This document shows, piece after piece, positions 3,212 through 22,595 of a stretch of 45,245 nucleotides of DNA. The stretch lies in assembly GCA_963933305.1 (NCBI GenBank), contig CAWVTM010000002.1, positions 1-45,245 on the forward strand. The letters are read 5' to 3'. Under the pieces are notes generated by a model. It worked only from the letters and a program-made list of their open reading frames with translations, ran no database searches and was not told the origin of the DNA. The first letter of the stretch is position 1. Every line of letters starts with the position of its first letter. The position numbers were made by a program, and so were the translations under genes. Source of the DNA: an uncultured bacterium. GTDB lineage: Bacteria > Bacteroidota > Bacteroidia > NS11-12g > UBA9320.

Positions 3212-3217
3212 TCAATA

Positions 3218-4048: not shown

Positions 4049-5391
4049 AAAATATAATAACGATTATCTTCCTACTGACGTTTACTTCCGCTTGGTCCCA
4101 AAACGTGCGTGTGATTGACGAGATAGTAGCGGTGATAGGGGAAAATATCGTCATGCGATCTGAGCTGGAAGCAGAATATGCGCAAGCTAAAAAGGAAATG
4201 TCTTACTATGAAGGCGACTTGAAGTGCGAGATACTTAACCAGCTTATCATCCAGAAACTATATCTGCATAAAGGTGATGTGGATAGTGTATACGCTACAG
4301 AAGATAGGGTAGAAGCAGAGGTAGATAGAAGGATAAAATACTATGCTACTCAGATAGGCGGAGAAGCTAGACTAGAGGAGTATTTGGGTAAGAGTGTATC
4401 TGAATATAAGGATCAAATGCGTCCTAAAATAGGGCAGCAGATGGTTACACAGCAGGTAAAGCAGAGTTTAATAAGTAGTATAAAAGCTAGTCCTACAGAC
4501 GTACGCAAGTTTTTCAATGATATACCAATAGATAGCCTTCCTAAATTTGGGATAGAGGTAGAGCTTGGTCTAATAGCTATGAAGCCTACGTCTAGTAATT
4601 ATGCTAAAGAATATGCATTAGAGAAAATCACTAAAATTCGCAAAGACATCTTTAGTGGTGTTTATAGTTTTGATTTTGCAGCTAAGAGTAGTAGTGATGA
4701 TAAGGGTACGTCTATTAATGGGGGCGATTTAGGTTATTTCTCACGTGGTCAGATGGTAGGAGCTTTTGAGCGAGCAGCTTTTAAGCTAGATCAAGACTCT
4801 ATATCCGAAGTAATAGAAACAGAATATGGATATCACATCATCCAACTGCTAGATAGAAAAGGAGATAAAGTAAATGCACGTCATATACTTATAAAGCCAC
4901 TGATAGTAAATAGTGACTTGGTAAGATTGAAAGGTGAGTTGACGGTACTCCAAGAAGCATTAAAAAAAGATAGTCTTACTATGTGTCAGGTAGCGGGTAA
5001 GTATAGTATAGATGCTTTCACAAAAGACAACTGTGGGTTTTATGCAGATCAGACTACTGGCTCACAGCAAGTGCCAGTAGCGGCACTAGAGCCTTTAATC
5101 GCTGCTAAAGTAGAAGTGCTTAAGGTAGGGGAATATTCTTGGCCAGAACAGTTTGAAGATGCAGACGGTACGATAGGGTATAGGTTTTTTTACTTAAGAA
5201 AAATAGTGCCAGCACATACTGCTAATCTAAAAGATGACTACCAAAAAGTGCAGTCACTTGCCTTAGAAAAGAAGCAAGAAGATTCGGTAAAGGAATGGAC
5301 GAATACTTATAAAAAGGGAGTGTATGTTTGGATTGACCCCTTATTTGTAAATTGTACAGAATTAGAAGGATGGAAAGGTTTAAGTAACTAG
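4045..5391 (+). CDS. SurA-like periplasmic chaperone / parvulin PPIase
   Basis: 448-aa ORF. The TTG start overlaps the upstream TGA (TTTGA). Signal peptide MKNIITIIFLLTFTSAWSQ. Parvulin motif GGDLGYFSRGQMVGAFERAAF...YGYHIIQL...ARHILI. Confidence 0.8.
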   Translation: MKNIITIIFLLTFTSAWSQNVRVIDEIVAVIGENIVMRSELEAEYAQAKKEMSYYEGDLKCEILNQLIIQKLYLHKGDVDSVYATEDRVEAEVDRRIKYYATQIGGEARLEEYLGKSVSEYKDQMRPKIGQQMVTQQVKQSLISSIKASPTDVRKFFNDIPIDSLPKFGIEVELGLIAMKPTSSNYAKEYALEKITKIRKDIFSGVYSFDFAAKSSSDDKGTSINGGDLGYFSRGQMVGAFERAAFKLDQDSISEVIETEYGYHIIQLLDRKGDKVNARHILIKPLIVNSDLVRLKGELTVLQEALKKDSLTMCQVAGKYSIDAFTKDNCGFYADQTTGSQQVPVAALEPLIAAKVEVLKVGEYSWPEQFEDADGTIGYRFFYLRKIVPAHTANLKDDYQKVQSLALEKKQEDSVKEWTNTYKKGVYVWIDPLFVNCTELEGWKGLSN

Positions 5392-10314: not shown

Positions 10315-10911
10315 ATGAAATTAATGATCAAAATAACGACACTGTTTGCCATTTTTGCTTTTTCTTCTACTTCAGTGCTAGCTCAGAAATTCGCATACGT
10401 AGATTCAGAATATATCCTATCACAGATGCCAGCATATAAGTCCGCTCAGACTCAGCTAAACGAGATCAGTAAGCAGTGGCAGTTTAAAGTGGATGAAAAA
10501 TTCGTAGAAATAGATAAGCTCTACAAGCAGTATCAAGCAGAGAAAGTCCTTCTTACTAAGGACATGAAAACAAAGCGTGAAAATGAAATTATAGAAAAAG
10601 AGCGTGCTGCAAAGAAGTTTCAGAATGATAAGTTTGGGTATGAAGGAGAACTATTCAAGAAACGCTCTGAGCTCGTCAAGCCATTACAAGACAAATTGTA
10701 TGAAGCCATCAATAAAGTAGCTAAGGGAAATGGTCTAGATTTTATTTTTGATAAAAGCGGCGACATGCTCATGCTAGTATCTAATTCAAAGTATGATAGA
10801 AGCGATGAAGTGCTCGAAGAATTAGGAGTAGTACCTTCTAAAAAGGGGAATGATAATAATCTGCCTCCAGGATCTAAAGACTATGATGACGAAGACCTTC
10901 CTCCTAGATAA
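10315..10911 (+). CDS. OmpH/Skp-family periplasmic chaperone
   Basis: 198-aa ORF with signal peptide (FAFSSTSVLAQK). FAYVDSEYIL start and long K/E/Q-rich coiled-coil body are typical of OmpH/Skp. Acidic, Pro-rich tail. Confidence 0.8.
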   Translation: MKLMIKITTLFAIFAFSSTSVLAQKFAYVDSEYILSQMPAYKSAQTQLNEISKQWQFKVDEKFVEIDKLYKQYQAEKVLLTKDMKTKRENEIIEKERAAKKFQNDKFGYEGELFKKRSELVKPLQDKLYEAINKVAKGNGLDFIFDKSGDMLMLVSNSKYDRSDEVLEELGVVPSKKGNDNNLPPGSKDYDDEDLPPR

Positions 10912-10956
10912 GTAATTAAAATCAACAGCAATAAATATAAAAACAATAAACAACAG

Positions 10957-11466
10957 ATGAAAAAAGCAATCGTAATAATGCTAATGCTATGTGGTACTAT
11001 AGGTGCTCAAGCTCAAACTAAAGTAGCTCATATTAACATAAGCGCGTTGATAGAAACTATGCCAGAGGCAGACAGTATCCAGAAAAAACTATTGAAGGAG
11101 CAGGAGCAATGGCAACTTATTCTTTCCGAAAAAGAAAAGGATGCACAAATCAAATATACTGCTTTAATGAAAATCTTAGATGATCCAAATGTACCTAAGA
11201 CTTTAAAAGAGATTCAGACACAAGAAGTAGAAAATTTACAGAAGCAGTATCAAGAACTCAACCAAAGAGCTCAGCAAGAATTGCAAAAAAAGCAAGAAGA
11301 GCTTCTCGGTCCCTTACTAGCTAAGGTGAAGGCAACCGTCAGTAAGGTAGCCAAAGCTAACGGGTACTCTTATGTAATGGATAATACAGAGGGTGGTAGC
11401 ATCATATACAGTGATGATGCGTATGATCTTATGCCTTTAGTGAAGGCTGAATTGGGTATTAAATAA
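10957..11466 (+). CDS. OmpH/Skp-family periplasmic chaperone (second paralogue)
   Basis: 169-aa ORF with signal peptide (LCGTIGAQAQ). VAHINISALI plus a coiled-coil Q/E/K-rich body. Tandem with the previous gene. Confidence 0.8.
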   Translation: MKKAIVIMLMLCGTIGAQAQTKVAHINISALIETMPEADSIQKKLLKEQEQWQLILSEKEKDAQIKYTALMKILDDPNVPKTLKEIQTQEVENLQKQYQELNQRAQQELQKKQEELLGPLLAKVKATVSKVAKANGYSYVMDNTEGGSIIYSDDAYDLMPLVKAELGIK

Positions 11467-11473
11467 TAGGAGT

Positions 11474-12265
11474 ATCAAAGCGTCTCAACCTATAGGCGTT
11501 TTTGATTCAGGGCTTGGTGGACTTACCATACTGAAAGCTCTGCAAAAAAAACTTCCAAATGAGCAGTTTGTCTATTATGGCGATACTGCTCATTTACCGT
11601 ATGGAGATAAGAGCGAAGAAGCTCTTATATCTTATGTACAAGCTATTGCACATTTTTTAAAGAGCAAAGACTGTAAGATTCTGGTAGTGGCTTGTAATAG
11701 TGCCACTACAGTGATTAACAAAGCTCCTAACCTCCCGTATTCTTCAGAGGATATAATAGAGGTGATAAGTCCTATAGTAAATCTCATAGCCACACAGCAG
11801 AAGTACACTAACATAGGTATTATCGGTACACGAAAGACGATAAGCTCTGGGATGTTTAATGAAGCTTTAGCTCTGCAAAACGGGAATCTCCAAATCACTG
11901 TAAGAGCTACTCCACTGCTTGTTCCACTTATTGAAGACGGATTTTTAGAAGAGAATGTGCTTTTTCCTGTATTTGATAGGTACTTTAAAGGATTTCAAAA
12001 CTGTCAACTGCTCATACCTGCGTGTACACATTATCCCATTATTTATCAGCAGATAGAGTCTTATTTTGACAATAGGCTAAAAGTGTTACACACACCAAAA
12101 ATAATAGCTGAATCTGTAGAGGCAATGTTGGAGCAAAAAGGACTACTCTCTACAACTAAAAATAATGAGGACGATTATCATCTGTCAGATGTGACGGATG
12201 AGTTTCTAAGAGAAGCAGAACTCTTTTTGGGCAAAAAAGTCCATTTTAACCGTACGTTGGTCTAA
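11474..12265 (+). CDS. murI: glutamate racemase; 5' end uncertain, no canonical start codon
   Basis: The track ORF (GTG 11687) starts right at the catalytic VVACNSAT motif. The same frame is open back to the TAA at 11465-11467. That upstream part encodes the conserved N-terminus PIGVFDSGLGGLTILKAL...YYGDTAHLPYG. The second catalytic motif is PACTHYP. There is no ATG/GTG/TTG in frame between 11468 and 11686, so the ATC at 11474 is given as a provisional start. Confidence 0.75.
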   Translation: MKASQPIGVFDSGLGGLTILKALQKKLPNEQFVYYGDTAHLPYGDKSEEALISYVQAIAHFLKSKDCKILVVACNSATTVINKAPNLPYSSEDIIEVISPIVNLIATQQKYTNIGIIGTRKTISSGMFNEALALQNGNLQITVRATPLLVPLIEDGFLEENVLFPVFDRYFKGFQNCQLLIPACTHYPIIYQQIESYFDNRLKVLHTPKIIAESVEAMLEQKGLLSTTKNNEDDYHLSDVTDEFLREAELFLGKKVHFNRTLV

Positions 12266-12695
12266 TATGACCATACCTCAAATAAGCTAATATTTCTAGT
12301 TTTAACGTTCCTCAGGTCAAAAGTAAACGTGGTTTACTAAATACCTTCATTGGCCAAAATACGGTCTGAATTGCAAAATTCATTGCCGAACTTAGCACTA
12401 ACAAATTAATCAATATGCTAAGAAAATACATGCCAATTACATTTTTATTTTTTCAATTTCAGGTCTGGCACATGATCAGTTTGCGGATATCAGAGGAGTA
12501 TAGCCCTGAAATTTTGATGCTTACTATGATAAGTTGAATTAGACCCTTTGTTACGCACAGTCAATTGTATATTATTATTATAACCTAAAGAAGAACAGTC
12601 CTGATAATTTTGGTGCTCTAAGAAACTTAAGTGTGACACTAAGAAGTACATTTTAATCAAACGGAATAACAGATATTTGCATCGTAAAAAAATCA

Positions 12696-13649
12696 ATGAA
12701 TAAGAAGCATCACATACTTATAATAGATGACGTGCACCCCTTGTTTATGAGTAAGCTCTCAGGTTACTCTATGGAATATGTACCTGATATTGTCAAAGAC
12801 GTTCTTTGGGACGCTATGCAAGAGGCTACTATACTCGTGATGCGTACTAAGCTTCATATGAATGCGGACTGGATAGACAGGGCTCCTAAGCTGAAACTTA
12901 TAGCTAGGCTAGGCTCAGGAATGGATAATATAGATGTGGATTATGCTACCACTAAGGGGATACACTGCATAAATGCCCCAGAGGGCAATAGAAATGCGGT
13001 AGCTGAACAAACTATAGGCACTATGCTTACACTTTTGAGTAATGTATATAAAGGAGATAGGGAGGTCAGCCAAGGAGTGTGGGATAGGAAAGGAAATGAG
13101 GGTAGAGAGCTAAGAAATCTCACGGTAGGTATTATTGGCTATGGGAGCGTAGGGTCTCGATTAGCTGAGTTATTAGTAGGTTTTGGGTGTGAGATACTTG
13201 CTTATGATTTGTATAAAAATGGTTTTGGAAATACACAGATAAAAGAAGTGCATTTAGCAGAGCTACAAGACCGATCAGATATAGTGACGATCCATGTACC
13301 ACTCACAAATAATTCTCAGAACATGGTAAATGATGAATTTATAGATAAAATGAAGAAATCATTCCTATTATTAAACCTTTCAAGAGGTGCTGTAGTAAAT
13401 ATTTCTGCACTTATAAATGGAATAAAAAGTGGTAAAGTATTGGGTGTTGGATTGGATGTTTTACCGAATGAGAAACTAGATACTTATACAGACGAAGAGC
13501 AAAATAACCTATCGTATCTAACAGACAGTAAAGTAGTTATGATAAGTCCGCATATTGGTGGAATTACCAAAGATGCCTATATAATGTTAGCAGAAGTGCT
13601 GGCAGATAAAATATTAAAGTGGGATATTAGACTCCCACTTGTGAACTGA
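12696..13649 (+). CDS. D-isomer-specific 2-hydroxyacid dehydrogenase (phosphoglycerate dehydrogenase-like)
   Basis: 317-aa ORF with NAD-binding GIIGYGSVGSRLA. Catalytic-triad contexts LNLSRGAVV, GLDVLPNE and SPHIGG. Confidence 0.8.
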   Translation: MNKKHHILIIDDVHPLFMSKLSGYSMEYVPDIVKDVLWDAMQEATILVMRTKLHMNADWIDRAPKLKLIARLGSGMDNIDVDYATTKGIHCINAPEGNRNAVAEQTIGTMLTLLSNVYKGDREVSQGVWDRKGNEGRELRNLTVGIIGYGSVGSRLAELLVGFGCEILAYDLYKNGFGNTQIKEVHLAELQDRSDIVTIHVPLTNNSQNMVNDEFIDKMKKSFLLLNLSRGAVVNISALINGIKSGKVLGVGLDVLPNEKLDTYTDEEQNNLSYLTDSKVVMISPHIGGITKDAYIMLAEVLADKILKWDIRLPLVN

Positions 13650-13735
13650 AACTTACCCTTAGGTAAAATTAATTTGAATAATTGCATTTTTATAGCAAAT
13701 ATTGAAGTTCGAAAAAACGTGTAAAAGCAAAGTAT

Positions 13736-16700
13736 ATGAGAAAAACACTTACAGTAATATTGGTTTGTTTTTTTGCAGCCGCATCCTACGCCCAGTCCAA
13801 TTTTGGAAAGCTTCAAGGAAAGGTTACAGATGCCAAAACTAAAATACCAGTTGCCTACGCTACTATACTTCTCGAAAAAGAGGGGATACGTAAGGGTGGA
13901 GCATACACTGATGATGAAGGAAAGTACGTGATTAATGCCTTAGATCCGGGCACGTACAGTGTCACAGTGAATTATCTTGATTATCAAGATAAGAAAGTTA
14001 TTGGTGTGGAGATATCTTCTAACAGTACTAAATACCTCAATATAGAGATGAGTCAGCAGTCTGCAGAAGACGGTGGAATAGCTCAACTGGGTCCAGCAGT
14101 AGTAAGAGCTGGTCGGCCACTCATAGAAAAAGATAAGAATACACAGACCTTAACAAGTGGAGATATAGCTAAGCTTCCTACTCGGAATTTGAATGCTATT
14201 GCAGCTACCTCATCTGGTGCTAATCAGACCAATGGTGGAGGAATATCGTTCTTAGGGAGTAGAGAGGATGCTACAGCATATTTCGTAGATGGTGTACGTG
14301 TACTGGGAAGTTCTAGTGTGCCTCAGTCTGCTCAAGGGCAGATAGATATTATACAGTCTGGTATACCAGCTCAGTATGGTGACTTTACGGGTGGAGCGAT
14401 TAGTATTACTACTAAAGGTCCATCACGTGCAGTGCGTCGTAGTTTTGAGCTTATTTCGTCAAGTCCATTTGATCCATATCACTTCAATCAGGCTGAGTTT
14501 TCTGCACTTGGACCATTATGGATTAAAAATAAAGGAGGAGGAGATAAGGAGTATGTAGCTTTAGGGTATCAAATCTCTGCCAATGTAAATTACAGTGCAG
14601 ATAATCGTCCAGGAGCTGGAGGTTTTTATAGTGTGAAGGCAGATGTGCTTGATGATTTAGAAGCGAATCCGATAACTGAAAACCCAAATGGACCAGGCTT
14701 TATTTACCGCTCACTGCTTCTTAATCAAGATGATCTAGAAGTGACTAAAGCAAGAAAAAATGTTGCTGCTTACTTTGGTAATGTACAAGGCAAGTTAGAG
14801 TATCTGCCTAACAAGAATACTTCAATCAGTATGTTTGGCTCATTCAATCAAAACCAAGGGAATAATTGGAACTATACTCAATCTCTGATGAACTACAGAG
14901 AATATAGCCACAGTACTAGCCAGACATTAAGAACGTATGTGAAATTCACTCAAAGACTAGGTAGTACGAGTGAAGATGACAAAGAAAAAGAGAAATCATT
15001 ATTTTCAGATGCATTTTATAACATACGTCTAGACTATCAGAGTAATTGGCGTGAGACTGAAAATCCACTGCACGAAGGAAATTTCTTCGATTATGGATAC
15101 ATAGGGAAGTTTACTGCAAACAAAGAGCCATTTTATCAGTTTGTCAATGATCCTATCAATCATATTGATCAAAATGGAGATACTGTAACACGTCAAGGGT
15201 ACTTTAACTACTTGACAGATTTTAATACGAGTATCGATTTTGAAAGAAGTGATAAAAATCCACAGCGAGCTGCATATACCCAAAGTCTATTTGACTTTTT
15301 TGAGAACTCTAATAGGACATTACGAACAGATGCAGATATACAGCAGGATTTAGGAATATTAAATGGATTTACTCCTAATCTTACCTACTCACTGTGGTCC
15401 AATCCAGGGTCAGGTGCTACAGGTTATTCCAAGTCACAAAATGAGAGAATAGCGGCATATGCACAAGGAGAGGCTATTCTTAACCTGGAAAATTCACATG
15501 ATTTACAATTTGGTATGTATTTCGAGCAGACTTTATTTAGCTCTTGGAATTTAGGTGCAGGTGGTCTATGGACGCTTATGCCACAACTGGCTAATAGTCA
15601 TATCACTGAGCGTGATTTTGTTACTGAGAATGGATACATCATTGGTGGTAACCATTCATATGATGATTTCGGTACATTTACAGATACCGTCAGCTACGAT
15701 ATACGTGTAGATGCAGATCAACAAAAAACGTTTGATAGAAACTTAAGAGCTAAACTCATAGAGACTGGTGCTAGAGATGCCGCGGGTAATTTATATACTG
15801 AATCCTCTTTTATAGATATCAATGCATTGGACCCGAGCACATTTTCACTGGATATGTTTGGTGCTAATGATCTCTGGAACAATGGTAGCAACAGGGTGTC
15901 TTATTTTGGGTATGATTATTTAGGTAACCGTACACGTAAGGCCTTCTCTTTTAATGATTTTGTAAATGACTTAGACAATAGAAGTATCGGTTCATTCGCA
16001 CCCGTTTATAGTGCTGTGTGGTTACAAGACAAGTTCCAGTTTAAGGATCTTGTTTTGAGACTAGGTGTACGTGTGGAGAGATATGATGCTAATCAGCAAG
16101 GTCTTAAAGATCAGTATTCTCTTTTTGCTACTAAATCTGCAGGGGAACTTGCCAGCATAGAGTCAGGTGATAGAGGTTCAAATTTATTGACAAGCTATAC
16201 GGTGCCTAGTAATATAGGAGACGACTATGTGGTATATGTAGATGATATAGAAAATCCAGGAGAAGTAGTAGGCTATAGAGATGGAAATACCTGGTACGCT
16301 CCAGACGGCACAGAATTGGCTAGCCCGGACCTTGTGCAGCAGTCTACTAAGAGTGGTAGAATTCAGCCATTCCTAAATAGTACCAATGAAGATATAGATC
16401 CATCTGCCTTTGAAGACTACAAACCAGTAATTAATGTACTTCCTCGTGTATGGTTTTCTTTTCCTATCAATTCTGAAGCACAGTTTTTTGCTAACTATGA
16501 TAAGCTAGCACAGAGACCAAATGACGGCTTAATTTTCGCACCTATTAACAGATATGAGTTTTTAGAAGAAAATCAGGGAGGAGTGCTTCCGAATGCTAAT
16601 CTGCAACCACGTGTAAAAACACTGTATGAGATGGGCTTTAAGCAAACATTATCTCGGAATTCTGCCCTAAGTATTATAGCAAGTTATGCTGAGACAAGAG

Positions 16701-17506
16701 GCGATTACGCCTTGGTACAAATAAATCAGGCATATCCCATTACGTATCAGAGTTATCAAAACTTAGATTTTGAAACAGTGAAAAATTTCAGAGCAGAGTA
16801 TGAAATGAGAGGAGAAGGAAGAACTTCGCTTGCCATTAACTATTCACTACTGTTTGCAGATGGTACAGGATCTAACGCTAACTCTGCTGCTGCACTTATA
16901 CAAGCAGGTCAGCCTAACTTGAGGTCACTATATCCTACAGAGCGTGATGTACGTCACCAGATTACGGCAAGGTTAGACTACAGATTCAGAGGTGGAAATG
17001 AGTATACTGGACCTATCTGGTTCAATAAAAAAGTATTTGCGGATGCAGGTGCTAATTTCATTATTTCTACTAAGTCTGGTCAGCCTTACTCAGCGTATCG
17101 TAACGAAATAGCTGGAGTAGCTATAGGTACAGCGTCACGTCAGTCATTAGATGGTAATCCATTCGGTTCTAGACTTCCTTGGCAGTTTAAGGTAGATGGT
17201 ACTTTCAGTAAAAACTTTAGTATCAGAAAGAGAAATCCGAAAGATAACTACAGAGCACAAAGCTTAGAAATACAGGCGTTCTTATGGGTACAAAATTTAC
17301 TAAATGTTCGTAATATTATAAATGTATACGGCTTCTCCAGGTTGCCAAACGATGATGGATGGTTAAGTTCTCCTCAAGGTGCTCAGTCAGCTAGCAATGA
17401 AGTGAACACACAGTCTTATTTAGCACTATATAATGCTAAAGTAGATGATCCACGTAATTACACTACTCCTAGACTTACTAGAATAGGTGTAAGAGTGTAT
17501 TTCTAA
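13736..17506 (+). CDS. giant TonB-dependent-receptor-type outer-membrane barrel with N-terminal carboxypeptidase-regulatory-like domain (Oar/SusC-type architecture)
   Basis: 1256-aa ORF with signal peptide MRKTLTVILVCFFAAASYAQ. CarboxypepD_reg-like segment GKVTDAKTKIPVAYATILLE...GKYVINALDPGTYSVTVNYLDYQ. Plug-like segment LTSGDIAKLPTRNLNAIAATSSG...FLGSREDATAYFVDGVRV...IPAQYGDFTGGAISITTKG. Ends in the OMP-type terminal RIGVRVYF. Confidence 0.8.
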   Translation: MRKTLTVILVCFFAAASYAQSNFGKLQGKVTDAKTKIPVAYATILLEKEGIRKGGAYTDDEGKYVINALDPGTYSVTVNYLDYQDKKVIGVEISSNSTKYLNIEMSQQSAEDGGIAQLGPAVVRAGRPLIEKDKNTQTLTSGDIAKLPTRNLNAIAATSSGANQTNGGGISFLGSREDATAYFVDGVRVLGSSSVPQSAQGQIDIIQSGIPAQYGDFTGGAISITTKGPSRAVRRSFELISSSPFDPYHFNQAEFSALGPLWIKNKGGGDKEYVALGYQISANVNYSADNRPGAGGFYSVKADVLDDLEANPITENPNGPGFIYRSLLLNQDDLEVTKARKNVAAYFGNVQGKLEYLPNKNTSISMFGSFNQNQGNNWNYTQSLMNYREYSHSTSQTLRTYVKFTQRLGSTSEDDKEKEKSLFSDAFYNIRLDYQSNWRETENPLHEGNFFDYGYIGKFTANKEPFYQFVNDPINHIDQNGDTVTRQGYFNYLTDFNTSIDFERSDKNPQRAAYTQSLFDFFENSNRTLRTDADIQQDLGILNGFTPNLTYSLWSNPGSGATGYSKSQNERIAAYAQGEAILNLENSHDLQFGMYFEQTLFSSWNLGAGGLWTLMPQLANSHITERDFVTENGYIIGGNHSYDDFGTFTDTVSYDIRVDADQQKTFDRNLRAKLIETGARDAAGNLYTESSFIDINALDPSTFSLDMFGANDLWNNGSNRVSYFGYDYLGNRTRKAFSFNDFVNDLDNRSIGSFAPVYSAVWLQDKFQFKDLVLRLGVRVERYDANQQGLKDQYSLFATKSAGELASIESGDRGSNLLTSYTVPSNIGDDYVVYVDDIENPGEVVGYRDGNTWYAPDGTELASPDLVQQSTKSGRIQPFLNSTNEDIDPSAFEDYKPVINVLPRVWFSFPINSEAQFFANYDKLAQRPNDGLIFAPINRYEFLEENQGGVLPNANLQPRVKTLYEMGFKQTLSRNSALSIIASYAETRGDYALVQINQAYPITYQSYQNLDFETVKNFRAEYEMRGEGRTSLAINYSLLFADGTGSNANSAAALIQAGQPNLRSLYPTERDVRHQITARLDYRFRGGNEYTGPIWFNKKVFADAGANFIISTKSGQPYSAYRNEIAGVAIGTASRQSLDGNPFGSRLPWQFKVDGTFSKNFSIRKRNPKDNYRAQSLEIQAFLWVQNLLNVRNIINVYGFSRLPNDDGWLSSPQGAQSASNEVNTQSYLALYNAKVDDPRNYTTPRLTRIGVRVYF

Positions 17507-17542
17507 TATAAAGTTAACGGAGCAGATAGAAGAATATAAGAT

Positions 17543-20500
17543 ATGAAAAAAGAGATGAGAAAAATAATGTTTGCCGCTGCCATTTTGATGGTGGTAAGCG
17601 TATTTGCAAAGGAAAATGTAAATACAGAAGAGCCGAATAGCACACGTAGTGGGAGTACAAATACTATGAAGATGAAATTTGGTAACGACTGTGATCCTGC
17701 TACTCAGAGTGCAGATTTGGATGTGAATAATGTTCGAACTAAGATTCTAAATGGTGGTGATATGTGGTGGGATCTAAATAACGCTAAATATGAAGTACCA
17801 AAACTGCCTACAGAAACGAATGAGGTGCGAACGCATAGTCTTTTTGCAGGTGCTATATGGATCGGTGGTGAACAAGATGGTGGAAATCTTAAACTGGCTG
17901 CCATGACGTATCGTCAGCGTGGTTCTGATTTTTGGCCTGGACCTATTAATCCAAACACCGGTACCACAGATAAGACGCAGTGTGATCTGTGGGATAAGAT
18001 ATATGAAGTGTCTGGTCAAGAAATCATAGACCATTCTGCTAATTATCAATCAGGCCTCATAGATGATAATATTCAAGACTGGCCCGCACAATATGCACCA
18101 TATAAAGATTTCAATAATAATGGAATCTATGATCCACAAGGAGGAGATTATCCAGTGCTTCAAGATAAATGTAAAGGTGTTGCTATAGCTAATAACCCAG
18201 AAGATCAACCAGATCAAATGCTATGGTGGATTTATAATGATAGAGGAAATATCCACTCTGAGACTCAGGGAGACCCAATAGGTGTAGAGATGCAAACTAC
18301 AGCATTTGCTTTTGCGACGAACGATGAGATCAATGATATGTCATTTTACAGTACTAGAATAGTGAATAGATCTTCATTACCCTTAACTAACACATACTTT
18401 GGCCAGTGGGTAGATGCAGATTTAGGAAACTTTGCTGATGACTATGTAGGTTGTGATGTAGGCCTTTCGTTAGGCTTTTGTTACAATGGTGATGATAATG
18501 ATGAAGGAGTACTTGGGTATGGACTTAATCCACCGTCTGTAGGTGTAGACTTCTTCGAAGGACCAAGAGTAGATACTGTAATTAACGGTATAGATACAAG
18601 TATTGAGCTAGGGATGTCAAAATTTGTCTATTACAATAATGATGCTAGTCCTATAAATGGTAATCCAGCATTAGCTACAGATTTTTATAATTATTTACGC
18701 GGTAAATGGAGAAATGGTTCAGATATTCAGTTTGGAGGTAATGGAGTGATTGGAACAGACGGAACAGATGCAGATTATATGTTTCCATTTGATACAGATC
18801 CTGCTCATCCCAATAAAAATTGGAACGAGAGACAAGCGGGTAATCAACCGGCTGATAGAAGATTTATACAGTCTTCAGGACCATTTGTACTTAATCCAGG
18901 TGCTACCCAACGATTAACAGTAGGAGTAGTGTGGGCACGTACTAATTTTGGTGGTGCTGATGGATCTCTTTTGCTTCTTAAGCAAGCCAGTAGAAAGGCA
19001 CAAATCCTTTTTGATCAGTGCTTTGACCTTGTAGATGGCCCAGATGCCCCAGAAATAGAGGTGCACGAGCAAGATAGACAAATTGTACTTTCATTTGGTA
19101 ATACCGGTACTGAACAGGTAGAGCTTTACAGTGAAAACTTAAATGAAAATGGAGTAGTAAGAAAATATGAATTTCAAGGGTATAGAATATTCCAGTTAAA
19201 AAGTGCCTCTGTTAGTTTATCAGAATTAGACAACCAGTCTAGAGCTAGAGAGATTTTCCAATGTGATGTAGTAGATGACTTTGGAGACCTATTTGAAAAT
19301 GAGTACGATGTAGATGTAGATGCTGATGTGCTTAAATTAAGAGTACGAGCGGCAAACGAAGGTCTAAGTCATACGGTTAGAATAACGGAGGATCAGTTTG
19401 CTACAGGGTCGGACAAGACACTAGTAAACTCTAAGGTATATAACTATATAGTATTATCTTATGCCGCAGCGGATGGTGGAGCACGTAAGCTTTATTTGGA
19501 AGGGCGTAAAGTCAAGAAATTTTCAGCAATGCCACATAAATTAGAGCCTAAGTTTGGTGGTTCTAGTGTGCCTTCTTTTTATGGGGACGGCCCAGAACTT
19601 GAAAGACTTTCAGGCAAGGGAAACGCTAACAATGAATTAGAACTTACACAAGAATCTGTAACTGCTATAATGACAAATAATAGTCTCCTAAATACAAAGT
19701 ATGAAAATGGAATGGGACCTGTCAATATTAAGGTGATTAATCCTTTGAAAGTTCCTTTAGGTGACTTTGAGCTCTCTTTAGTGCAAAAGAATTTTACCGC
19801 TAATACAGGAAATGACGAGGATAGTTTATTTGCAGACAGTACTATGTGGATATTGGTTAAATTACCAAACGATACTGTATTTGCAGATACTACTATAAAC
19901 TATGAAAATGAGCAGGTTATCTTAGAATCTACTACGGGTAAGAAAATACTAGATTGGGGTTTTGCAGTGACCATAAACCAAGTAGCTGAGCCAGGTAGAG
20001 AACCAGGAAGATATGATGATAATGGACTCGTTAACTGGACTGTGACATTCTCAGATCCGAGTAATGAGTGGCTTACGGCTGTAAGAGACAATGACGCTAC
20101 CACAGCACTTCAGTTTGGAGCATTTGACTGGATACGATCTGGAGTTACAGGTCAGGCGGGTAATTATGATGACCCATCTTGGCATGATTACGGTACTTCA
20201 AGATATGGAGCAACTCAACCTCTAGACAGAAATGGAGTATATGAAAGGATTTGGGATGGACGTATAGCTCCGGCCAGACTAGTCTCTAATACCCAAAGGA
20301 GTAATTCGTCTGAAAGAGTAGCTGTAAATGTGCAGCCTATGACATACGGCTATGCTGGATTGGCAGGCATCGGATTAAATAATATAAGTAGTGTAGACAT
20401 TGTAATTACACCAGATGAGACTAAGTGGTCCAAGTGCGTGATCCTAGAAATGGGAGAAGATCCTGGACTTAATGAAGGAGGTGCTCAGAAGTTTGATATG

Positions 20501-21397
20501 AGAACAGGTACTTTGAATTATAAAGGCCAAGACTTACCCGCAGGGCGATCTATATTTCCGGGATATGCTATCAATGTAAGCACAGGTGAGAGACTCAATA
20601 TTATCATAGGTGAAGATTCATATCAGAAAAGTGAAAATGGCAATGATATGAAATGGAACCCTACCTCTAATGCAGGTATAATAAATGGAAATTACGCCCA
20701 ATTCGGTGGAAGGCACTTCATTTACGTGATGGGATCTCATCAAGGTTTATCAGCAGGAATTCATCCTAAATTACCAATCTATGATGAGGGAAATGCGTAT
20801 TATGATCTTTTGAGTACTATGACTTCTTCTAATAGACCGAATAATTTAAGAGCAATATTTCAAAACTGTGATTGGATCATTCCTACGTATATGGAAGAGG
20901 GTAAGCGTATGATTGAAAATGCCGATGGTATCCCCGTCCCACCCAATGAGATGAAGATGAGATTAAGAGTATCTCAAACGTATGGTACTACAAGTCAAAC
21001 TGAAAATGGAGGTCGTCCTAAGTTTAAGTTTGGTACTCAGGATATATATAATGATATCAATGCAGAAAATGGTAAAGCAGCTTTAGACTTAGCTATTATG
21101 ACGCCAAACCCATACTATGCATTCTCTGGATATGAGGGAAGTGCTATTGACAATGCAGTAAAGATCAGAAACCTGCCACCTAAGTGTGATATATCGATCT
21201 ATACCTTGGATGGTTCATTAGTAAGACGTATCAATAAGGATGATGAGTCTACAGAGGTGATTTGGAATTTAAAAAACAATGCGAGTGTGCCCATCGCTAG
21301 TGGTTTATATATCATTCATATTGATGCTGGAGAGCTAGGTGAGAAGATATTGAAATGGATGGGAGTAATGAGAGAGCTTGACCTTGACTCTTTCTAA
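17543..21397 (+). CDS. large secreted protein of unknown function with C-terminal T9SS-CTD-like beta-sandwich
   Basis: 1284-aa ORF starting 36 nt after the barrel gene. Cleavable non-lipoprotein signal peptide (AAAILMVVSVFAKE). No catalytic motif recognised by eye. The last ~99 aa (TPNPYY...IYTLDGSLVRR...WNLKNN...PIASGLYIIHIDAG...GEKILK) resemble a type-A Por secretion tail. Confidence 0.65.
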   Translation: MKKEMRKIMFAAAILMVVSVFAKENVNTEEPNSTRSGSTNTMKMKFGNDCDPATQSADLDVNNVRTKILNGGDMWWDLNNAKYEVPKLPTETNEVRTHSLFAGAIWIGGEQDGGNLKLAAMTYRQRGSDFWPGPINPNTGTTDKTQCDLWDKIYEVSGQEIIDHSANYQSGLIDDNIQDWPAQYAPYKDFNNNGIYDPQGGDYPVLQDKCKGVAIANNPEDQPDQMLWWIYNDRGNIHSETQGDPIGVEMQTTAFAFATNDEINDMSFYSTRIVNRSSLPLTNTYFGQWVDADLGNFADDYVGCDVGLSLGFCYNGDDNDEGVLGYGLNPPSVGVDFFEGPRVDTVINGIDTSIELGMSKFVYYNNDASPINGNPALATDFYNYLRGKWRNGSDIQFGGNGVIGTDGTDADYMFPFDTDPAHPNKNWNERQAGNQPADRRFIQSSGPFVLNPGATQRLTVGVVWARTNFGGADGSLLLLKQASRKAQILFDQCFDLVDGPDAPEIEVHEQDRQIVLSFGNTGTEQVELYSENLNENGVVRKYEFQGYRIFQLKSASVSLSELDNQSRAREIFQCDVVDDFGDLFENEYDVDVDADVLKLRVRAANEGLSHTVRITEDQFATGSDKTLVNSKVYNYIVLSYAAADGGARKLYLEGRKVKKFSAMPHKLEPKFGGSSVPSFYGDGPELERLSGKGNANNELELTQESVTAIMTNNSLLNTKYENGMGPVNIKVINPLKVPLGDFELSLVQKNFTANTGNDEDSLFADSTMWILVKLPNDTVFADTTINYENEQVILESTTGKKILDWGFAVTINQVAEPGREPGRYDDNGLVNWTVTFSDPSNEWLTAVRDNDATTALQFGAFDWIRSGVTGQAGNYDDPSWHDYGTSRYGATQPLDRNGVYERIWDGRIAPARLVSNTQRSNSSERVAVNVQPMTYGYAGLAGIGLNNISSVDIVITPDETKWSKCVILEMGEDPGLNEGGAQKFDMRTGTLNYKGQDLPAGRSIFPGYAINVSTGERLNIIIGEDSYQKSENGNDMKWNPTSNAGIINGNYAQFGGRHFIYVMGSHQGLSAGIHPKLPIYDEGNAYYDLLSTMTSSNRPNNLRAIFQNCDWIIPTYMEEGKRMIENADGIPVPPNEMKMRLRVSQTYGTTSQTENGGRPKFKFGTQDIYNDINAENGKAALDLAIMTPNPYYAFSGYEGSAIDNAVKIRNLPPKCDISIYTLDGSLVRRINKDDESTEVIWNLKNNASVPIASGLYIIHIDAGELGEKILKWMGVMRELDLDSF

Positions 21398-21425
21398 ATA
21401 GGAATAAGATAAATTAAAAAAATCA

Positions 21426-22505
21426 ATGAAGAAATTAATAATATTATCGATACTAGTATCAGCGAGTGCTACGTTATTTGCCGGGAATCCGGATAGAATA
21501 GGGCAAGCAGGTGCTACACAGCTAAATATCAATGGATTTGGGAGAAGTTCTGGATGGGGATGGGCTGCTGTGAGCGGTGTATCTGGACTAGAAGGAATCT
21601 ACAATAACATAGGTGGATTAGCGCGTACTGACAATACAGAGATTATCTTCTCTCGTACTGCTTGGCTGATGGGTAGTGATATCAATATCAATACATTTGG
21701 GTTTGCACAAAGCATAGGAGGTAGCGGTGCTCTAGGAGTAAGTATAATGAGTTATGACATAGGTGAGATCCCTATTACTACTGCAGAGCAGCCAGATGGA
21801 GGTTTGGGTACTTACAAACCTAGATTTACGAATATCACCGTGGCATATTCTAAGCGATTTACAAAGGAGATTTCAGGAGGTATCGGGTTTAAGGTATTTT
21901 CAGAGTCTATTACTAATGTGAAAGCTCAAGGTTTAGGTATAGACGCTGGTATTCAGTATATCACTACTCTAAAAAGTGATGAAAAAATAAAAAAGAACGA
22001 TGTCAAGTTCGGGGTGTCTTTAAAAAATATCGGTCCAGATGCTAGGTACAGTGGAGATGGTCTCTCTACTAAGCTTACTGATCCAGAGTCAGAGATAGAG
22101 TATACCGTAAATCAACGTGCAGCTAAGTTTAATCTACCTACACTTATGAATATAGGTGCTTCATATGATATCAGATTAGATAAAAATAACGAGACGTATA
22201 ATCATAGAATGACTCCTGCATTCACGTTTACCAATAATGCATTTTCCAATAACCAGTTCACTTTAGGAGGTGAGTATGGTTATAAGACGCTCTTTATGGT
22301 AAGAGCTGCATATGCTTATGAAAACGGGATTACGTCATATGAGACTAGAACTAATGCGTTTACAGGTGTGATGGGTGGTTTTACCTTTGAAGTACCTGTA
22401 AGTAAGGATTCAGAAACGACCTTTGGCTTAGATTACTCTTACCGTCATTCTAATCCATTCGGAGGGTCACACAGTTTTGGTGTAAGACTTAACATAGGAG
22501 AGTAA
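21426..22505 (+). CDS. PorV/PorQ-family-like outer-membrane beta-barrel (divergent paralogue-like)
   Basis: 359-aa ORF starting 28 nt after the previous gene, with signal peptide (SASATLFAG). The N-terminal pattern GQAGATQLNINGFGRSSGWGWAAVSGVSGLEGIYNNIGGLA follows the PorV/PorQ layout (AGAxxLxI...R..G.G.A...NPAGLA). Alternating beta-strand pattern throughout. Confidence 0.55.
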   Translation: MKKLIILSILVSASATLFAGNPDRIGQAGATQLNINGFGRSSGWGWAAVSGVSGLEGIYNNIGGLARTDNTEIIFSRTAWLMGSDININTFGFAQSIGGSGALGVSIMSYDIGEIPITTAEQPDGGLGTYKPRFTNITVAYSKRFTKEISGGIGFKVFSESITNVKAQGLGIDAGIQYITTLKSDEKIKKNDVKFGVSLKNIGPDARYSGDGLSTKLTDPESEIEYTVNQRAAKFNLPTLMNIGASYDIRLDKNNETYNHRMTPAFTFTNNAFSNNQFTLGGEYGYKTLFMVRAAYAYENGITSYETRTNAFTGVMGGFTFEVPVSKDSETTFGLDYSYRHSNPFGGSHSFGVRLNIGE

Positions 22506-22535
22506 TTTCCTATACCTATTAAGAATATTAATTTC

Positions 22536-22577
22536 CAATGTTGTATCTCACTTTCGAGATACAACATTGTTGTTTTA
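22536..22577 (+). terminator. rho-independent terminator closing the three-gene outer-membrane operon
   Basis: Perfect 14-bp stem CAATGTTGTATCTC / GAGATACAACATTG with a 6-nt loop, followed by TTGTTTTA. It lies 31 nt after the stop at 22505. Confidence 0.85.
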
Positions 22578-22595
22578 TAGAAATACAAGGAGAAT

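What the first reader, a model, noticed from the sequence alone, without database searches (positions are those of the whole stretch)
13736..22577. Three-gene outer-membrane operon: giant Oar/SusC-type TonB-dependent barrel, 1284-aa CTD-bearing secreted protein and PorV-like barrel
Seen in sequence: three same-strand genes are separated by only 36 and 28 nt, and a perfect 14-bp-stem terminator closes them at 22536-22577. Gene 1 has a signal peptide, a carboxypeptidase-regulatory-like domain, a plug domain and a very long barrel ending in ...VRVYF. Gene 2 has a cleavable signal peptide without a lipobox Cys, so it is not a SusD-like lipoprotein. It has about 1150 aa with no catalytic motif I can recognise, followed by a T9SS-type C-terminal domain. 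Gene 3 is a 359-aa barrel with the PorV/PorQ entry motif layout, but it lacks the canonical PDARxxGMGD-type wording. Established knowledge: PorV is the T9SS shuttle barrel that binds cargo CTDs and partners PorU. SusC-type barrels normally pair with SusD lipoproteins. The Myxococcus Oar TonB-dependent transporter, which has the same N-terminal architecture, has been reported as required for secretion of the protease PopC. Inference: this may be a dedicated surface-display or export module in which a PorV paralogue holds the CTD of the neighbouring giant protein on or next to an Oar-like barrel. I know of no characterised system with this composition.
Basis: partly seen in the sequence, partly recalled or inferred. 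Interest (0 to 1): 0.78.

Follow-up and report, generated by a model that had tools for sequence, protein, structure and literature searches.

The report
Conserved outer-membrane three-gene operon, Bacteroidia
Three tightly packed genes encode a very divergent TonB-dependent-type outer-membrane barrel, an uncharacterised 1284-residue protein with a type IX secretion tail, and a private PorV-like barrel; the trio is conserved in dozens of uncultured aquatic Bacteroidia species but its function has never been studied.

Summary
Three same-strand ORFs (13736-17506, 17543-21397, 21426-22505) are separated by 36 and 28 nt and closed by a 14-bp hairpin terminator.

- **Gene 1** has a CarboxypepD_reg N-terminal domain. 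Its AlphaFold model matches solved TonB-dependent transporters over the whole chain (E 1e-26), but no sequence model of a TBDT barrel, SusC or Oar detects it.
- **Gene 2** has a signal peptide without a lipobox and a roughly 1140-aa all-beta body with no Pfam family and no solved structural relative. It ends in a divergent type-A T9SS C-terminal domain (CTD) plus a conserved 9-residue tail.
- **Gene 3** passes the NCBIfam PorV/PorQ family model but fails the PorV, PorQ and PorV2 equivalog models.

Gene 2 is not PorU or PorZ, so this is not the known attachment pair. The full triad is present in 67 of 79 species-representative loci, with median spacers of 23 and 25 nt, inside a housekeeping neighbourhood. 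The gene 2 family has more than 7000 clusters at 50% identity. Its CTD evolves more slowly than its body and more slowly than GreA+HIT.

Best reading (about 0.4): a T9SS-exported surface protein is kept on a private PorV-type barrel through an uncleaved CTD and works with the TonB-dependent barrel. No interaction was tested. I rate it a new variant of known kinds and moderately interesting.

The parts
12696..13649 (+). SerA-like D-2-hydroxyacid (phosphoglycerate) dehydrogenase. It is a conserved upstream neighbour and may be co-transcribed; its functional link to the triad is unknown.
   Evidence: Pfam 2-Hacid_dh_C 152 bits. NCBIfam PGDH 229 bits, below the cut-off of 454. Found directly upstream of gene 1 in 52 of the 67 triad loci. 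There is no + strand terminator and no TAnnTTTG box in the 86-nt gap before gene 1; the nearest + strand box is at 12605-12612.
13736..17506 (+). Gene 1: 1256-aa outer-membrane protein with a TonB-dependent-transporter fold and large insertions beyond the classical roughly 700-aa fold.
   Evidence: ORF. AlphaFold model of aa 111-1256: pLDDT 84, pTM 0.81. The top 50 Foldseek PDB hits are all TBDTs (PirA, PhuR, PfeA, Cir, FhuA, BtuB and others), E 3e-26 to 2.5e-20, TM-score on the target 0.51-0.78.
13811..14050 (+). Gene 1 N-terminal extension: carboxypeptidase-regulatory-like domain (aa 26-105).
   Evidence: PF13620 57.1 bits and PF13715 51.1 bits, both above their gathering scores.
14090..14113 (+). 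Gene 1 candidate TonB box (GPAVVRAG, aa 119-126), between the N-terminal domain and the plug.
   Evidence: Position and an alternating hydrophobic V-x-V pattern are kept in most, not all, of the 40 homologues. This is a motif reading only.
14129..14395 (+). Gene 1 plug domain (aa 132-220).
   Evidence: PF07715 20.1 bits, below the gathering score of 23.9. The family profile weakly matches the Fiu plug, E 0.006. The region lies within the whole-chain structural alignments to TBDTs.
17543..21397 (+). Gene 2: 1284-aa secreted protein of an uncharacterised family.
   Evidence: ORF. No Pfam family. No PDB sequence match, alone or as a profile. More than 5658 homologues. 7321 representatives at 50% clustering.
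17543..17608 (+). Gene 2 signal peptide (aa 1-22, ...VSVFA|KEN), with no lipobox cysteine.
   Evidence: Read from the sequence. The first Cys is residue 50. A22 and E24 are nearly invariant in the family.
17678..21097 (+). Gene 2 body (aa 46-1185): mostly beta, multi-domain, no known catalytic motif.
   Evidence: AlphaFold model pLDDT 79, pTM 0.65. Foldseek PDB gives only partial matches (about 250-460 columns, E about 1e-3, probability up to 1.0) to chains of GH94, GH116, dextran dextrinase and OpgD/OpgG enzymes. BFVD gives only fibronectin-III-type matches. No HExxH motif.
17750..17845 (+). Gene 2 aa 70-101 (NGGDMWWDL...FAGAIWIGG): the region of the body with many invariant residues that is modelled at pLDDT < 50.
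   Evidence: Invariant columns. Low-confidence segment 25-56 of the model, equal to aa 70-101. That this is a partner or ligand interface is an inference.
21098..21367 (+). Gene 2 divergent type-A T9SS C-terminal domain (aa 1186-1275; landmarks PNPYYA, SGLYIIHID, KILKWMGV).
   Evidence: TIGR04183 21.2 bits, cut-off 23. 32 of 32 homologues match at E <= 0.01, best 4.3e-6. 7 of 32 match Pfam Por_Secre_tail. NCBI names the homologue P0066 a 'T9SS type A sorting domain-containing protein'.
21368..21394 (+). Gene 2 conserved 9-residue C-terminal tail (MRELDLDSF) beyond the end of the CTD model.
   Evidence: The TIGR04183 alignment stops at model position 62 of 72 at residue 1264, which leaves about 10 extra residues. 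Ordinary cargo CTDs from related loci end with the model. The tail is kept in triad and in stand-alone copies. Majority identity of the last 14 residues is 0.85.
21426..22505 (+). Gene 3: 359-aa PorV/PorQ-family outer-membrane barrel, a separate subfamily.
   Evidence: NF033709 125.9 bits (cut-off 90) over aa 29-356. PorV 65.5 (cut-off 250), PorQ 51 (cut-off 220), PorV2 22 (cut-off 325). The family profile's only strong PDB match is F. johnsoniae PorV 6h3i_F, E 1.3e-13.
22536..22579 (+). Intrinsic-terminator-like hairpin (14-bp perfect stem, 6-nt loop) plus T-rich tail, closing the operon before greA.

Best explanation
The three genes make one outer-membrane assembly.

1. Gene 2 crosses the inner membrane by Sec and the outer membrane by the cell's type IX secretion system, guided by its type-A CTD.
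2. The CTD is not removed. With its conserved 9-residue tail it stays bound to gene 3, a private PorV/PorQ-family barrel, in the way PorU stays on PorV and PorZ stays on PorQ. This tethers the 1140-residue beta-rich body to the cell surface without a lipid anchor.
3. There the body works with gene 1, a private and very divergent TonB-dependent barrel. It acts as the barrel's extracellular capture or processing partner for a still unknown substrate, possibly a glycan. It plays the part that SusD-type and other surface lipoproteins play for other Bacteroidota TBDTs.

Shown: the identity of the three folds and families, the tight conserved operon, and the slow evolution of the CTD. Inferred: T9SS export, CTD retention, both contacts, and the direction of transport.
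For: - **Operon anatomy:** spacers of 36 and 28 nt and one terminator.
- **Synteny:** the full triad, same order and strand, occurs in 67 of 79 species-representative loci, with median spacers of 23 and 25 nt. It persists down to 41-42% gene 2 identity.
- **Gene 1:** whole-chain structural match to TBDTs, E 1e-26. It has a conserved TonB-box-like strand and a plug.
- **Gene 3:** a PorV/PorQ family member that is neither PorV nor PorQ.
- **Gene 2 CTD is real:** 32 of 32 homologues match TIGR04183.
- **Gene 2 CTD is unusually constrained:**
  - Majority identity is 0.775 for the CTD against 0.646 for the body.
  - Mean pairwise distance is 0.51 for the CTD, against 0.75 (body), 0.83 (gene 3), 0.93 (gene 1) and 0.59 (GreA+HIT).
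  - It carries an extra tail that three ordinary cargo CTDs from related loci lack.
- **Precedent:** retained CTDs are how PorU binds PorV and PorZ binds PorQ. A review proposes that cognate PorV-like barrels protect CTDs from cleavage (PMC10202324).
- **Correlated evolution:** distance matrices of the three proteins correlate more with each other (r 0.86-0.93) than with GreA+HIT (0.74-0.84). Partial r is 0.61-0.78 after controlling for GreA+HIT.
- **Gene 1 to gene 2 coupling:** one genome carries a second gene 2'-gene 1' pair next to the triad (L029).
- **T9SS present in the clade:** canonical type-A cargo genes lie in related loci.
- **Possible glycan link:** parts of the gene 2 model resemble chains of glycan-active enzymes.
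Against: - No contact between any pair was computed or measured. No multimer prediction was available.
- The mirror-tree correlations can arise from shared locus-level rate variation, and GreA+HIT is a short, noisy control.
- Stand-alone gene 2 paralogues with the same CTD exist far from any gene 1 or gene 3 (L010, L022, L024, L064, L019). Adjacency is therefore not obligatory.
- Many genomes have a gene 1 paralogue with no gene 2 of its own.
- Sequence models do not recognise gene 1's barrel, so it may have lost transport activity.
- The resemblance of the CTD to the PorZ CTD is not specific: one of three ordinary cargo CTDs hits the PorZ model too.
- Presence of a complete T9SS in this genome was not checked.
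- The substrate is unknown.
Confidence: 0.4

Rival explanations
1. Only gene 2 and gene 3 work together, as a T9SS cargo displayed on its own PorV-type barrel. Gene 1 is an independent TonB-dependent nutrient importer that merely shares the transcript.
For: - The cargo-plus-cognate-barrel logic has precedent in PorU-PorV, PorZ-PorQ and type-B cargo with PorP/SprF.
- Gene 1 paralogues occur without a gene 2 of their own.
- Gene 2 paralogues occur without gene 1.
Against: - The gene 1-gene 2 junction is as conserved as the gene 2-gene 3 junction: 72 and 69 of 79 loci respectively.
- Gene 1 and the gene 2 body give the highest distance correlation of all pairs (r 0.93, partial 0.78).
- L029 has an extra gene 2'-gene 1' pair with no extra gene 3.
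Confidence: 0.2
2. Gene 2 is an ordinary T9SS cargo. Its CTD is cleaved by PorU and the body is released or linked to lipopolysaccharide. Gene 3 only acts as a dedicated shuttle during export, or has another role.
For: - The CTD belongs to the ordinary type-A class.
- Stand-alone paralogues show that gene 2 does not need an adjacent gene 3.
- The CTD's match to the PorZ model is not specific.
Against: - The CTD is the slowest-evolving part of the protein and evolves more slowly than GreA+HIT.
- It carries a conserved tail beyond the domain. My expectation, from general knowledge, is that a disposable signal would not be so constrained.
Confidence: 0.15
3. The triad is a structural or biogenesis element of the cell envelope of this clade, such as a surface layer, tether or assembly factor. 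Gene 1 would be a non-transporting barrel scaffold.
For: - The locus sits in a housekeeping, envelope-flavoured neighbourhood: SurA-like PPIases, two OmpH/Skp genes and MurI upstream; GreA, HIT and RuvC downstream.
- The three proteins are conserved about as well as MurI and the SerA-like gene.
- No nutrient-TBDT sequence model recognises gene 1.
- Gene 2 shows no recognisable catalytic motif.
Against: - Gene 1 keeps a plug and a TonB-box-like strand, which argues for an energised gate.
- Neighbourhood with housekeeping genes is weak evidence.
- The published Bacteroidota BAM subunits are different proteins (PMC12611786 and PMC12578637).
Confidence: 0.15
4. Gene 1 acts outwards, like Myxococcus Oar for PopC, and exports gene 2 or helps to insert it. 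Alternatively the triad is a T9SS accessory or attachment module.
For: - Oar shares the CarboxypepD_reg plus plug plus barrel architecture and is required for PopC secretion (PMC6434023).
- Weak PorU and PorZ model hits occur in some gene 2 homologues.
Against: - That architecture is the common one in Bacteroidetes TBDTs and is not diagnostic.
- Gene 2 already carries a T9SS signal, and canonical T9SS cargo genes lie in related loci.
- In the window protein the PorZ hit covers only the CTD (aa 1181-1264, model 670-744 of 757), and there is no Peptidase_C25 hit.
- Myxococcus has no T9SS, so the analogy is remote.
Confidence: 0.1

Closest known systems
PorU-PorV and PorZ-PorQ pairs of the T9SS attachment complex (Porphyromonas gingivalis, Flavobacterium johnsoniae)
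   Same: A Sec- and T9SS-dependent protein with a type-A CTD is encoded beside a PorV/PorQ-family barrel. In the known pairs the CTD is retained and is the tether (PMC10202324). Gene 3 passes the PorV/PorQ family model, and its only strong PDB relative is PorV.
   Different: - Gene 2 has no Peptidase_C25 or PorU match. It matches the PorZ model only in the CTD, at 22 bits against a cut-off of 260.
- Gene 3 fails the PorV, PorQ and PorV2 equivalog cut-offs.
- A TonB-dependent-type barrel is part of the operon.
- The CTD has an extra conserved tail.
SusC/SusD and other TBDT plus surface-lipoprotein 'lid' pairs of Bacteroidota (BtuB-BtuG, XusA-XusB, HmuR-HmuY, DUF4876 and others)
   Same: A TBDT with a CarboxypepD_reg-type N-terminal extension is encoded directly next to a large secreted partner in a conserved pair.
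   Different: - The partner is not a lipoprotein: it has no lipobox Cys. All lids in the survey I read are lipoproteins (bioRxiv 10.1101/2023.03.17.533168).
- It is about twice the size of SusD (my recollection of SusD length) and carries a T9SS CTD.
- Gene 1 matches no NCBIfam model at all, and therefore none for SusC/RagA.
- A third gene, the PorV-like barrel, is part of the unit.
Type-B CTD cargo with cognate PorP/SprF barrels (e.g. SprB-SprF)
   Same: A large surface protein is encoded next to a dedicated PorV-like barrel thought to handle or hold its CTD.
   Different: - The CTD here is type A (TIGR04183).
- The barrel is PorV/PorQ family. Only a few homologues also carry a precomputed PorP_SprF Pfam hit.
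- No gliding genes lie nearby.
Myxococcus xanthus Oar (TBDT required for PopC secretion)
   Same: Same order of CarboxypepD_reg domain, plug and barrel.
   Different: - There is no sequence-level relationship beyond the N-terminal domain.
- The architecture is generic in Bacteroidetes.
- The neighbouring protein has its own T9SS signal.

Membership tests
TonB-dependent transporter (gene 1) | 22-strand beta-barrel closed by an N-terminal plug | tested here: met
   The predicted structure (pLDDT 84, pTM 0.81) aligns over about 1150-1280 columns with solved TBDTs, E 3e-26 to 2.5e-20, TM on target 0.51-0.78. This rests on a model. I did not count the strands.
TonB-dependent transporter (gene 1) | Sequence match to Plug (PF07715) and a TBDT barrel model (PF00593 or relatives) | tested here: not met
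   Plug scores 20.1 bits against a gathering score of 23.9. No barrel model matches at E <= 0.1. No NCBIfam hit. The family profile finds only the Fiu plug, at E 0.006. A few distant homologues do carry precomputed PF07715 or PF00593 hits.
TonB-dependent transporter (gene 1) | TonB box before the plug, and dependence on TonB | tested here: inconclusive
   A GPAVVRAG-type strand with a V-x-V pattern lies at a conserved position in most of the 40 homologues. Function is not testable here.
SusC/RagA family with SusD partner (gene 1, gene 2) | NCBIfam SusC/RagA model match, and an adjacent SusD-like lipoprotein | tested here: not met
   Gene 1 has no NCBIfam hit. Gene 2 has no SusD-type Pfam hit and no lipobox cysteine.
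Oar-type secretion TBDT (gene 1) | CarboxypepD_reg N-terminal extension | tested here: met
   PF13620 57 bits. The feature is shared by most Bacteroidetes TBDTs, so it is not diagnostic.
Oar-type secretion TBDT (gene 1) | Requirement for secretion of a protein substrate | not testable with these tools
   Needs genetics. The neighbouring protein carries a T9SS signal instead.
T9SS type-A cargo (gene 2) | Sec signal peptide plus a C-terminal type-A sorting domain (TIGR04183 / PF18962) | tested here: inconclusive
   The window protein scores 21.2 bits against a cut-off of 23, with no Pfam hit. However, 32 of 32 homologues match TIGR04183 at E <= 0.01. The signal peptide was read from the sequence. 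A profile comparison with one canonical cargo aligned only the PNP motif.
T9SS type-A cargo (gene 2) | A T9SS (sprA, gldKLMN, porV and others) in the same genome | not tested
   None of the roughly 30 window ORFs I scanned matched a T9SS component model. The rest of the genome was not available. Indirect support: canonical type-A cargo genes lie in related loci.
PorU sortase (gene 2) | Peptidase_C25-type catalytic domain / NF033707 match | tested here: not met
   The window protein has no hit. 7 of 32 homologues give weak hits, best E 2.7e-4. No PorU-like structure appears among the top 50 Foldseek matches.
PorZ (gene 2) | Full-length NF052228 match (the model is 757 positions long) | tested here: not met
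   22.3 bits against a cut-off of 260, covering only model positions 670-744, which is the CTD.
PorV/PorQ family (gene 3) | NF033709 above its cut-off over the full length | tested here: met
   125.9 bits against a cut-off of 90, aa 29-356 on model positions 3-325 of 326. The family profile hits PorV 6h3i_F at E 1.3e-13.
Canonical PorV / PorQ / PorV2 (gene 3) | Equivalog model above its cut-off | tested here: not met
   PorV 65.5 (cut-off 250), PorQ 51 (cut-off 220), PorV2 22.3 (cut-off 325).

The most novel reading that the evidence does not exclude
A widespread, undescribed outer-membrane machine of aquatic Bacteroidia. A T9SS-delivered protein of about 1300 aa is permanently docked, through an uncleaved CTD and a conserved 9-residue tail, on its own PorV-family barrel. 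It serves as the extracellular working subunit of its own highly divergent TonB-dependent barrel. That would be a lipoprotein-independent way of building a TBDT surface complex, and a third retained-CTD/PorV-type pair after PorU-PorV and PorZ-PorQ.
Probability: 0.3. Interest if true: 0.8.

Novelty: new variant of a known kind. Interest (0 to 1): 0.6.

Why it matters
- **Large unstudied family:** the gene 2 family has more than 7000 clusters at 50% identity, with members of roughly 1200-1550 residues among the best matches. It has no Pfam model for its body, no solved relative and no literature that I could find.
- **Core-like locus:** with its two barrels it forms a locus conserved about as well as nearby housekeeping genes. 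It occurs in many uncultured Bacteroidia, several from marine and lake samples by their record names.
- **If the tethering model is right,** it would show two things. PorV-type barrels would be general docking stations for retained CTDs, not only parts of the attachment complex. TonB-dependent barrels could recruit T9SS-delivered partners instead of lipoproteins.
- **Testability:** the model can be tested directly by multimer prediction, CTD proteomics and pull-downs. Record CP121331.1 (2.87 Mb) carries a 94%-identical gene 3.

Tried and rejected
1. **Canonical PorU/PorV pair:** rejected.
2. **PorZ/PorQ pair:** rejected. Only the CTD matches PorZ.
3. **Specific likeness of the gene 2 CTD to the retained CTDs of PorZ/PorU:** 25 of 32 and 7 of 32 homologues hit those models. 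A control showed that one of three ordinary cargo CTDs also hits PorZ, so I do not use this as evidence.
4. **Link to the newly described Bacteroidota BAM subunits (BamG/H/M/P, BamI-K):** I read both papers. They describe different proteins, and there is no link beyond the nearby OmpH/Skp genes.
5. **Sequence searches of PDB:** nothing for the single proteins and nothing for the gene 2 profile.
6. **Foldseek on gene 2:** only partial matches against PDB and fibronectin-III-type matches against BFVD. No fold assignment for the whole protein.
7. **Profile search of the 1.84-billion-protein library:**
   - It failed with alignment A4 (first sequence too long).
   - It failed with A1 (profile over 1200 positions).
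   - It was finally run with the single sequence.
8. **Cluster look-up of ten distant representatives:** almost no names, apart from one 'YCF48-related protein'.
9. **hhalign of the gene 2 profile against one canonical cargo:** aligned only the PNP motif.
10. **Bacteroidota -7 promoter box (TAnnTTTG) in front of gene 1:** none found.
11. **Literature searches for a described triad or PorV paralogue system:** nothing found.

Full report
**Observation**

The window has three + strand ORFs at 13736-17506 (1256 aa), 17543-21397 (1284 aa) and 21426-22505 (359 aa). The spacers are 36 and 28 nt. The terminator scan finds a perfect 14-pair stem with a 6-nt loop at 22536-22569, followed by TTGTTTTATA. 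greA starts at 22596. The only adjustments are these:
- The stem ends at 22569.
- The Plug hit of gene 1 and the CTD hit of gene 2 each fall just below their curated cut-offs for this particular sequence.

**Gene 1**

- Pfam finds the carboxypeptidase-regulatory-like domain (aa 26-105, 57 bits) and a sub-threshold Plug match (aa 132-220, 20.1 bits against 23.9). It finds no barrel model.
- NCBIfam finds nothing, and therefore no SusC/RagA model.
- PDB sequences are not matched. A 40-sequence family profile finds only CarboxypepD_reg-type domains and, weakly, the Fiu plug.
- An AlphaFold model of aa 111-1256, built on that alignment, is confident (pLDDT 84, pTM 0.81). Its top 50 Foldseek matches in PDB are all TonB-dependent transporters. 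Examples are PirA, PhuR, PfeA, Cir, FhuA, BtuB, FusA and XusA, with E 3e-26 to 2.5e-20 and TM on the target 0.51-0.78.
- At 1146 modelled residues against roughly 580-850 for those targets, it carries several hundred extra residues.
- A short strand with a V-x-V pattern (GPAVVRAG, aa 119-126) sits where a TonB box would sit. The pattern is kept in most of the family.

Gene 1 therefore has the TBDT fold but is too divergent for the sequence models. The Oar paper itself says that this architecture dominates among Bacteroidetes TBDTs (PMC6434023).

**Gene 2**

*Body.*
- The signal peptide ends ...VSVFA|KEN. The first cysteine is residue 50, so the protein is not a lipoprotein.
- Neither this protein nor 31 homologues hit any Pfam family other than weak Por_Secre_tail and FlgD_ig matches at the C-terminus.
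- PDB sequences are not matched by the protein or by its profile.
- The AlphaFold model of aa 46-1195 is reasonably confident (pLDDT 79, pTM 0.65) and almost all beta.
- Foldseek finds no whole-chain relative. It gives partial matches of about 250-460 columns (E about 1e-3, probability up to 1.0) to chains of GH94, GH116, dextran dextrinase and OpgD/OpgG enzymes. From my knowledge of those enzymes the matched part is probably their beta-sandwich domains, but the tool does not report which region aligned. Against viral models it gives only fibronectin-III-type matches.
- There is no HExxH motif.
- Many invariant residues lie in aa 70-101 (NGGDMWWDL...FAGAIWIGG), which the monomer model leaves at pLDDT < 50. 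That would fit a segment ordered only by a partner or ligand. This is an inference.

*C-terminal domain.*
- The C-terminal 99 residues have the landmarks of a type-A T9SS CTD. TIGR04183 scores 21.2 bits here (cut-off 23), and all 32 of 32 family members match at E <= 0.01.
- The CTD differs from ordinary cargo CTDs taken from related loci in two ways:
  - It is the slowest-evolving part of the protein. Majority identity is 0.775 against 0.646 for the body. Mean pairwise distance is 0.51, against 0.75 for the body and 0.59 for GreA+HIT.
  - It continues for about nine residues (MRELDLDSF) beyond the end of the domain model. The three ordinary CTDs I checked end with the model.

*What it is not.* Gene 2 is not PorU: there is no Peptidase_C25 or NF033707 hit. 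It is not PorZ: only the CTD matches that model, at 22 bits against 260.

**Gene 3**

- It passes the NCBIfam PorV/PorQ family model over its full length (125.9 bits against 90). It fails the equivalog models for PorV (65.5 against 250), PorQ (51 against 220) and PorV2 (22 against 325).
- A 38-sequence profile has one strong PDB match, F. johnsoniae PorV (6h3i_F, E 1.3e-13).
- NCBI names several of its homologues 'PorV/PorQ family protein'.

It is a separate subfamily of PorV-type barrels.

**Distribution and synteny**

- The gene 2 family is very large. There are more than 5658 hits among 90% clusters, and the best 120 nearly all cover the full length. Among 50% clusters there are 7321 representatives at E <= 1e-3 and 2275 at E <= 1e-30. 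Most of the 150 best are about 1200-1550 residues long.
- Source names, where present, are 'hypothetical protein', once 'T9SS type A sorting domain-containing protein' and once 'YCF48-related protein'. All named sources are uncultured Bacteroidia, Flavobacteriales or Bacteroidota.
- A scan of one genome per GTDB species found at least 571 stretches that encode a relative. The best 79 loci are all MAGs or single-cell genomes labelled mostly as Bacteroidia or Bacteroidota, and several record names point to marine or lake samples.
- In those loci, gene 1 ends directly upstream of gene 2 in 72, gene 3 starts directly downstream in 69, and both hold in 67. Median spacers are 23 and 25 nt. Most exceptions are contig ends.
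- The flanks are also conserved: a SerA-like 2-hydroxyacid dehydrogenase upstream and greA plus a HIT-family gene downstream. Further upstream lie murI and two ompH/skp genes.
- Median identity to the window proteins is 40% (gene 1), 46% (gene 2) and 48% (gene 3). That compares with 42% for the dehydrogenase, 33% for MurI, 54% for GreA and 57% for HIT.
- Variations on the arrangement:
  - Many genomes have a gene 1 paralogue (36-38% identity) between murI and the dehydrogenase. The window lacks it.
  - L029 has a second gene 2'-gene 1' pair after gene 3.
  - Five loci carry a stand-alone gene 2 paralogue with the same CTD in unrelated surroundings. In two of them it sits next to a small canonical T9SS cargo gene.
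- None of the roughly 30 other window ORFs I scanned matched a T9SS component. They are housekeeping genes such as SurA-like PPIases, a MoxR-type ATPase, RuvC, citrate synthase and AtpD.

**Mechanism**

The known precedent for a CTD protein encoded with a PorV-type barrel is the attachment complex. There PorU keeps its CTD and stays on PorV, and PorZ keeps its CTD and stays on PorQ. A review suggests that cognate PorV-like barrels protect CTDs from cleavage (PMC10202324). Three observations fit the same logic here:
- the unusually constrained CTD with its private tail;
- the private PorV-type barrel;
- the invariant gene order.

Gene 2 would be exported by the T9SS and then held at the surface by gene 3.

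The equally tight and conserved junction with gene 1 argues that the TBDT-fold barrel is the third member of the assembly. Two further points support this. The gene 1 to gene 2 body distance correlation is the highest of all pairs (r 0.93, partial 0.78 after controlling for GreA+HIT). L029 carries an extra gene 2'-gene 1' pair.

The simplest role is the one surface lipoproteins play for other Bacteroidota TBDTs, namely capture or processing of a substrate for TonB-driven import. All lids in the survey I read are lipoproteins. A T9SS-delivered, barrel-tethered partner would therefore be a new variant.

I put this at about 0.4. None of the contacts, the CTD retention or the transport direction has been tested. 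The mirror-tree signal can come from shared rate variation. Stand-alone gene 2 paralogues show that adjacency is not required.

The rivals are:
- a gene 2-gene 3 display pair with an unrelated co-transcribed importer (0.2);
- ordinary cleaved cargo (0.15);
- an envelope structural or biogenesis complex (0.15);
- an Oar-like export or T9SS accessory role (0.1).

**Comparison with the known, and verdict**

The parts belong to known kinds: TBDT fold, type-A CTD cargo and PorV/PorQ family. None is a member of a characterised subfamily. I found no paper that describes the combination. I rate it a new variant of a known kind with interest 0.6. It is a solid, testable lead resting on strong comparative evidence, but it has no functional data and no demonstrated interaction.

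Noticed in passing
window 11444-12265 (+): The glutamate racemase gene has no ATG, GTG or TTG upstream of its conserved N-terminal GVFDSGLGG motif. The ORF lister starts it at GTG 11687 (192 aa), but the frame is open from 11444 and encodes the normal MurI N-terminus from 11468. Either the gene uses a non-canonical start (ATC 11474, ATA 11492 or CTG 11447) or the sequence has an error there.
   Followed up: partly
window 12266-12695; L001 1307-4993; L003 1530-5159; L083 1-1223: Many related genomes carry a gene 1 paralogue (1200-1230 aa, 36-38% identical, also with CarboxypepD_reg) between murI and the SerA-like dehydrogenase. The window has only a 430-nt gap with short ORFs at that place.
   Followed up: partly
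L029 13225-19522: A second gene 2-like (1295 aa) plus gene 1-like pair, in reversed order, lies directly downstream of gene 3 in one MAG. There is no second PorV-like gene.
   Followed up: partly
L010 7869-11741; L022 7866-11729; L024 1769-5632; L064 7851-11681; L019 4404-7895: Stand-alone gene 2 paralogues sit in unrelated gene neighbourhoods. L010, L022 and L064 keep the CTD and the ...LDLD(S/T)F tail, L024 ends early at ...KWMGLLQ, and L019 runs off the contig end. In L010 and L024 the upstream gene is a small protein with a canonical Por_Secre_tail (Pfam 39.8 and 43.3 bits). L019 and L048 come from the same MAG, so one genome can hold both a triad copy and a solo copy.
   Followed up: partly
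window 12605-12612 and 13650-13735: There is no Bacteroidota-type -7 box (TAnnTTTG) on the + strand in the 86-nt gap before gene 1, and no + strand terminator after the SerA-like gene. The nearest + strand box lies 84 nt upstream of that gene. The transcript may therefore hold four genes.
   Followed up: partly
window 1235-5391 (+) and 10315-11466 (+): Three consecutive SurA/PrsA-type peptidyl-prolyl isomerase genes (the middle one is a weak match) and two tandem OmpH/Skp chaperone genes lie upstream of the operon. This is a periplasmic-chaperone-rich neighbourhood with no bamA between them.
   Followed up: no
window 40478-42565 (-): A 695-aa ORF has only a weak helix-hairpin-helix match (PF12836, 26 bits, gathering score 27) and no NCBIfam family.
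   Followed up: no
L083 (CP121331.1, 2.87 Mb record, GCA_043511425.1): This record encodes a gene 3 protein 94% identical to the window's, with the same gene order from the dehydrogenase to the S8 peptidase. It is a convenient reference genome for follow-up.
   Followed up: partly
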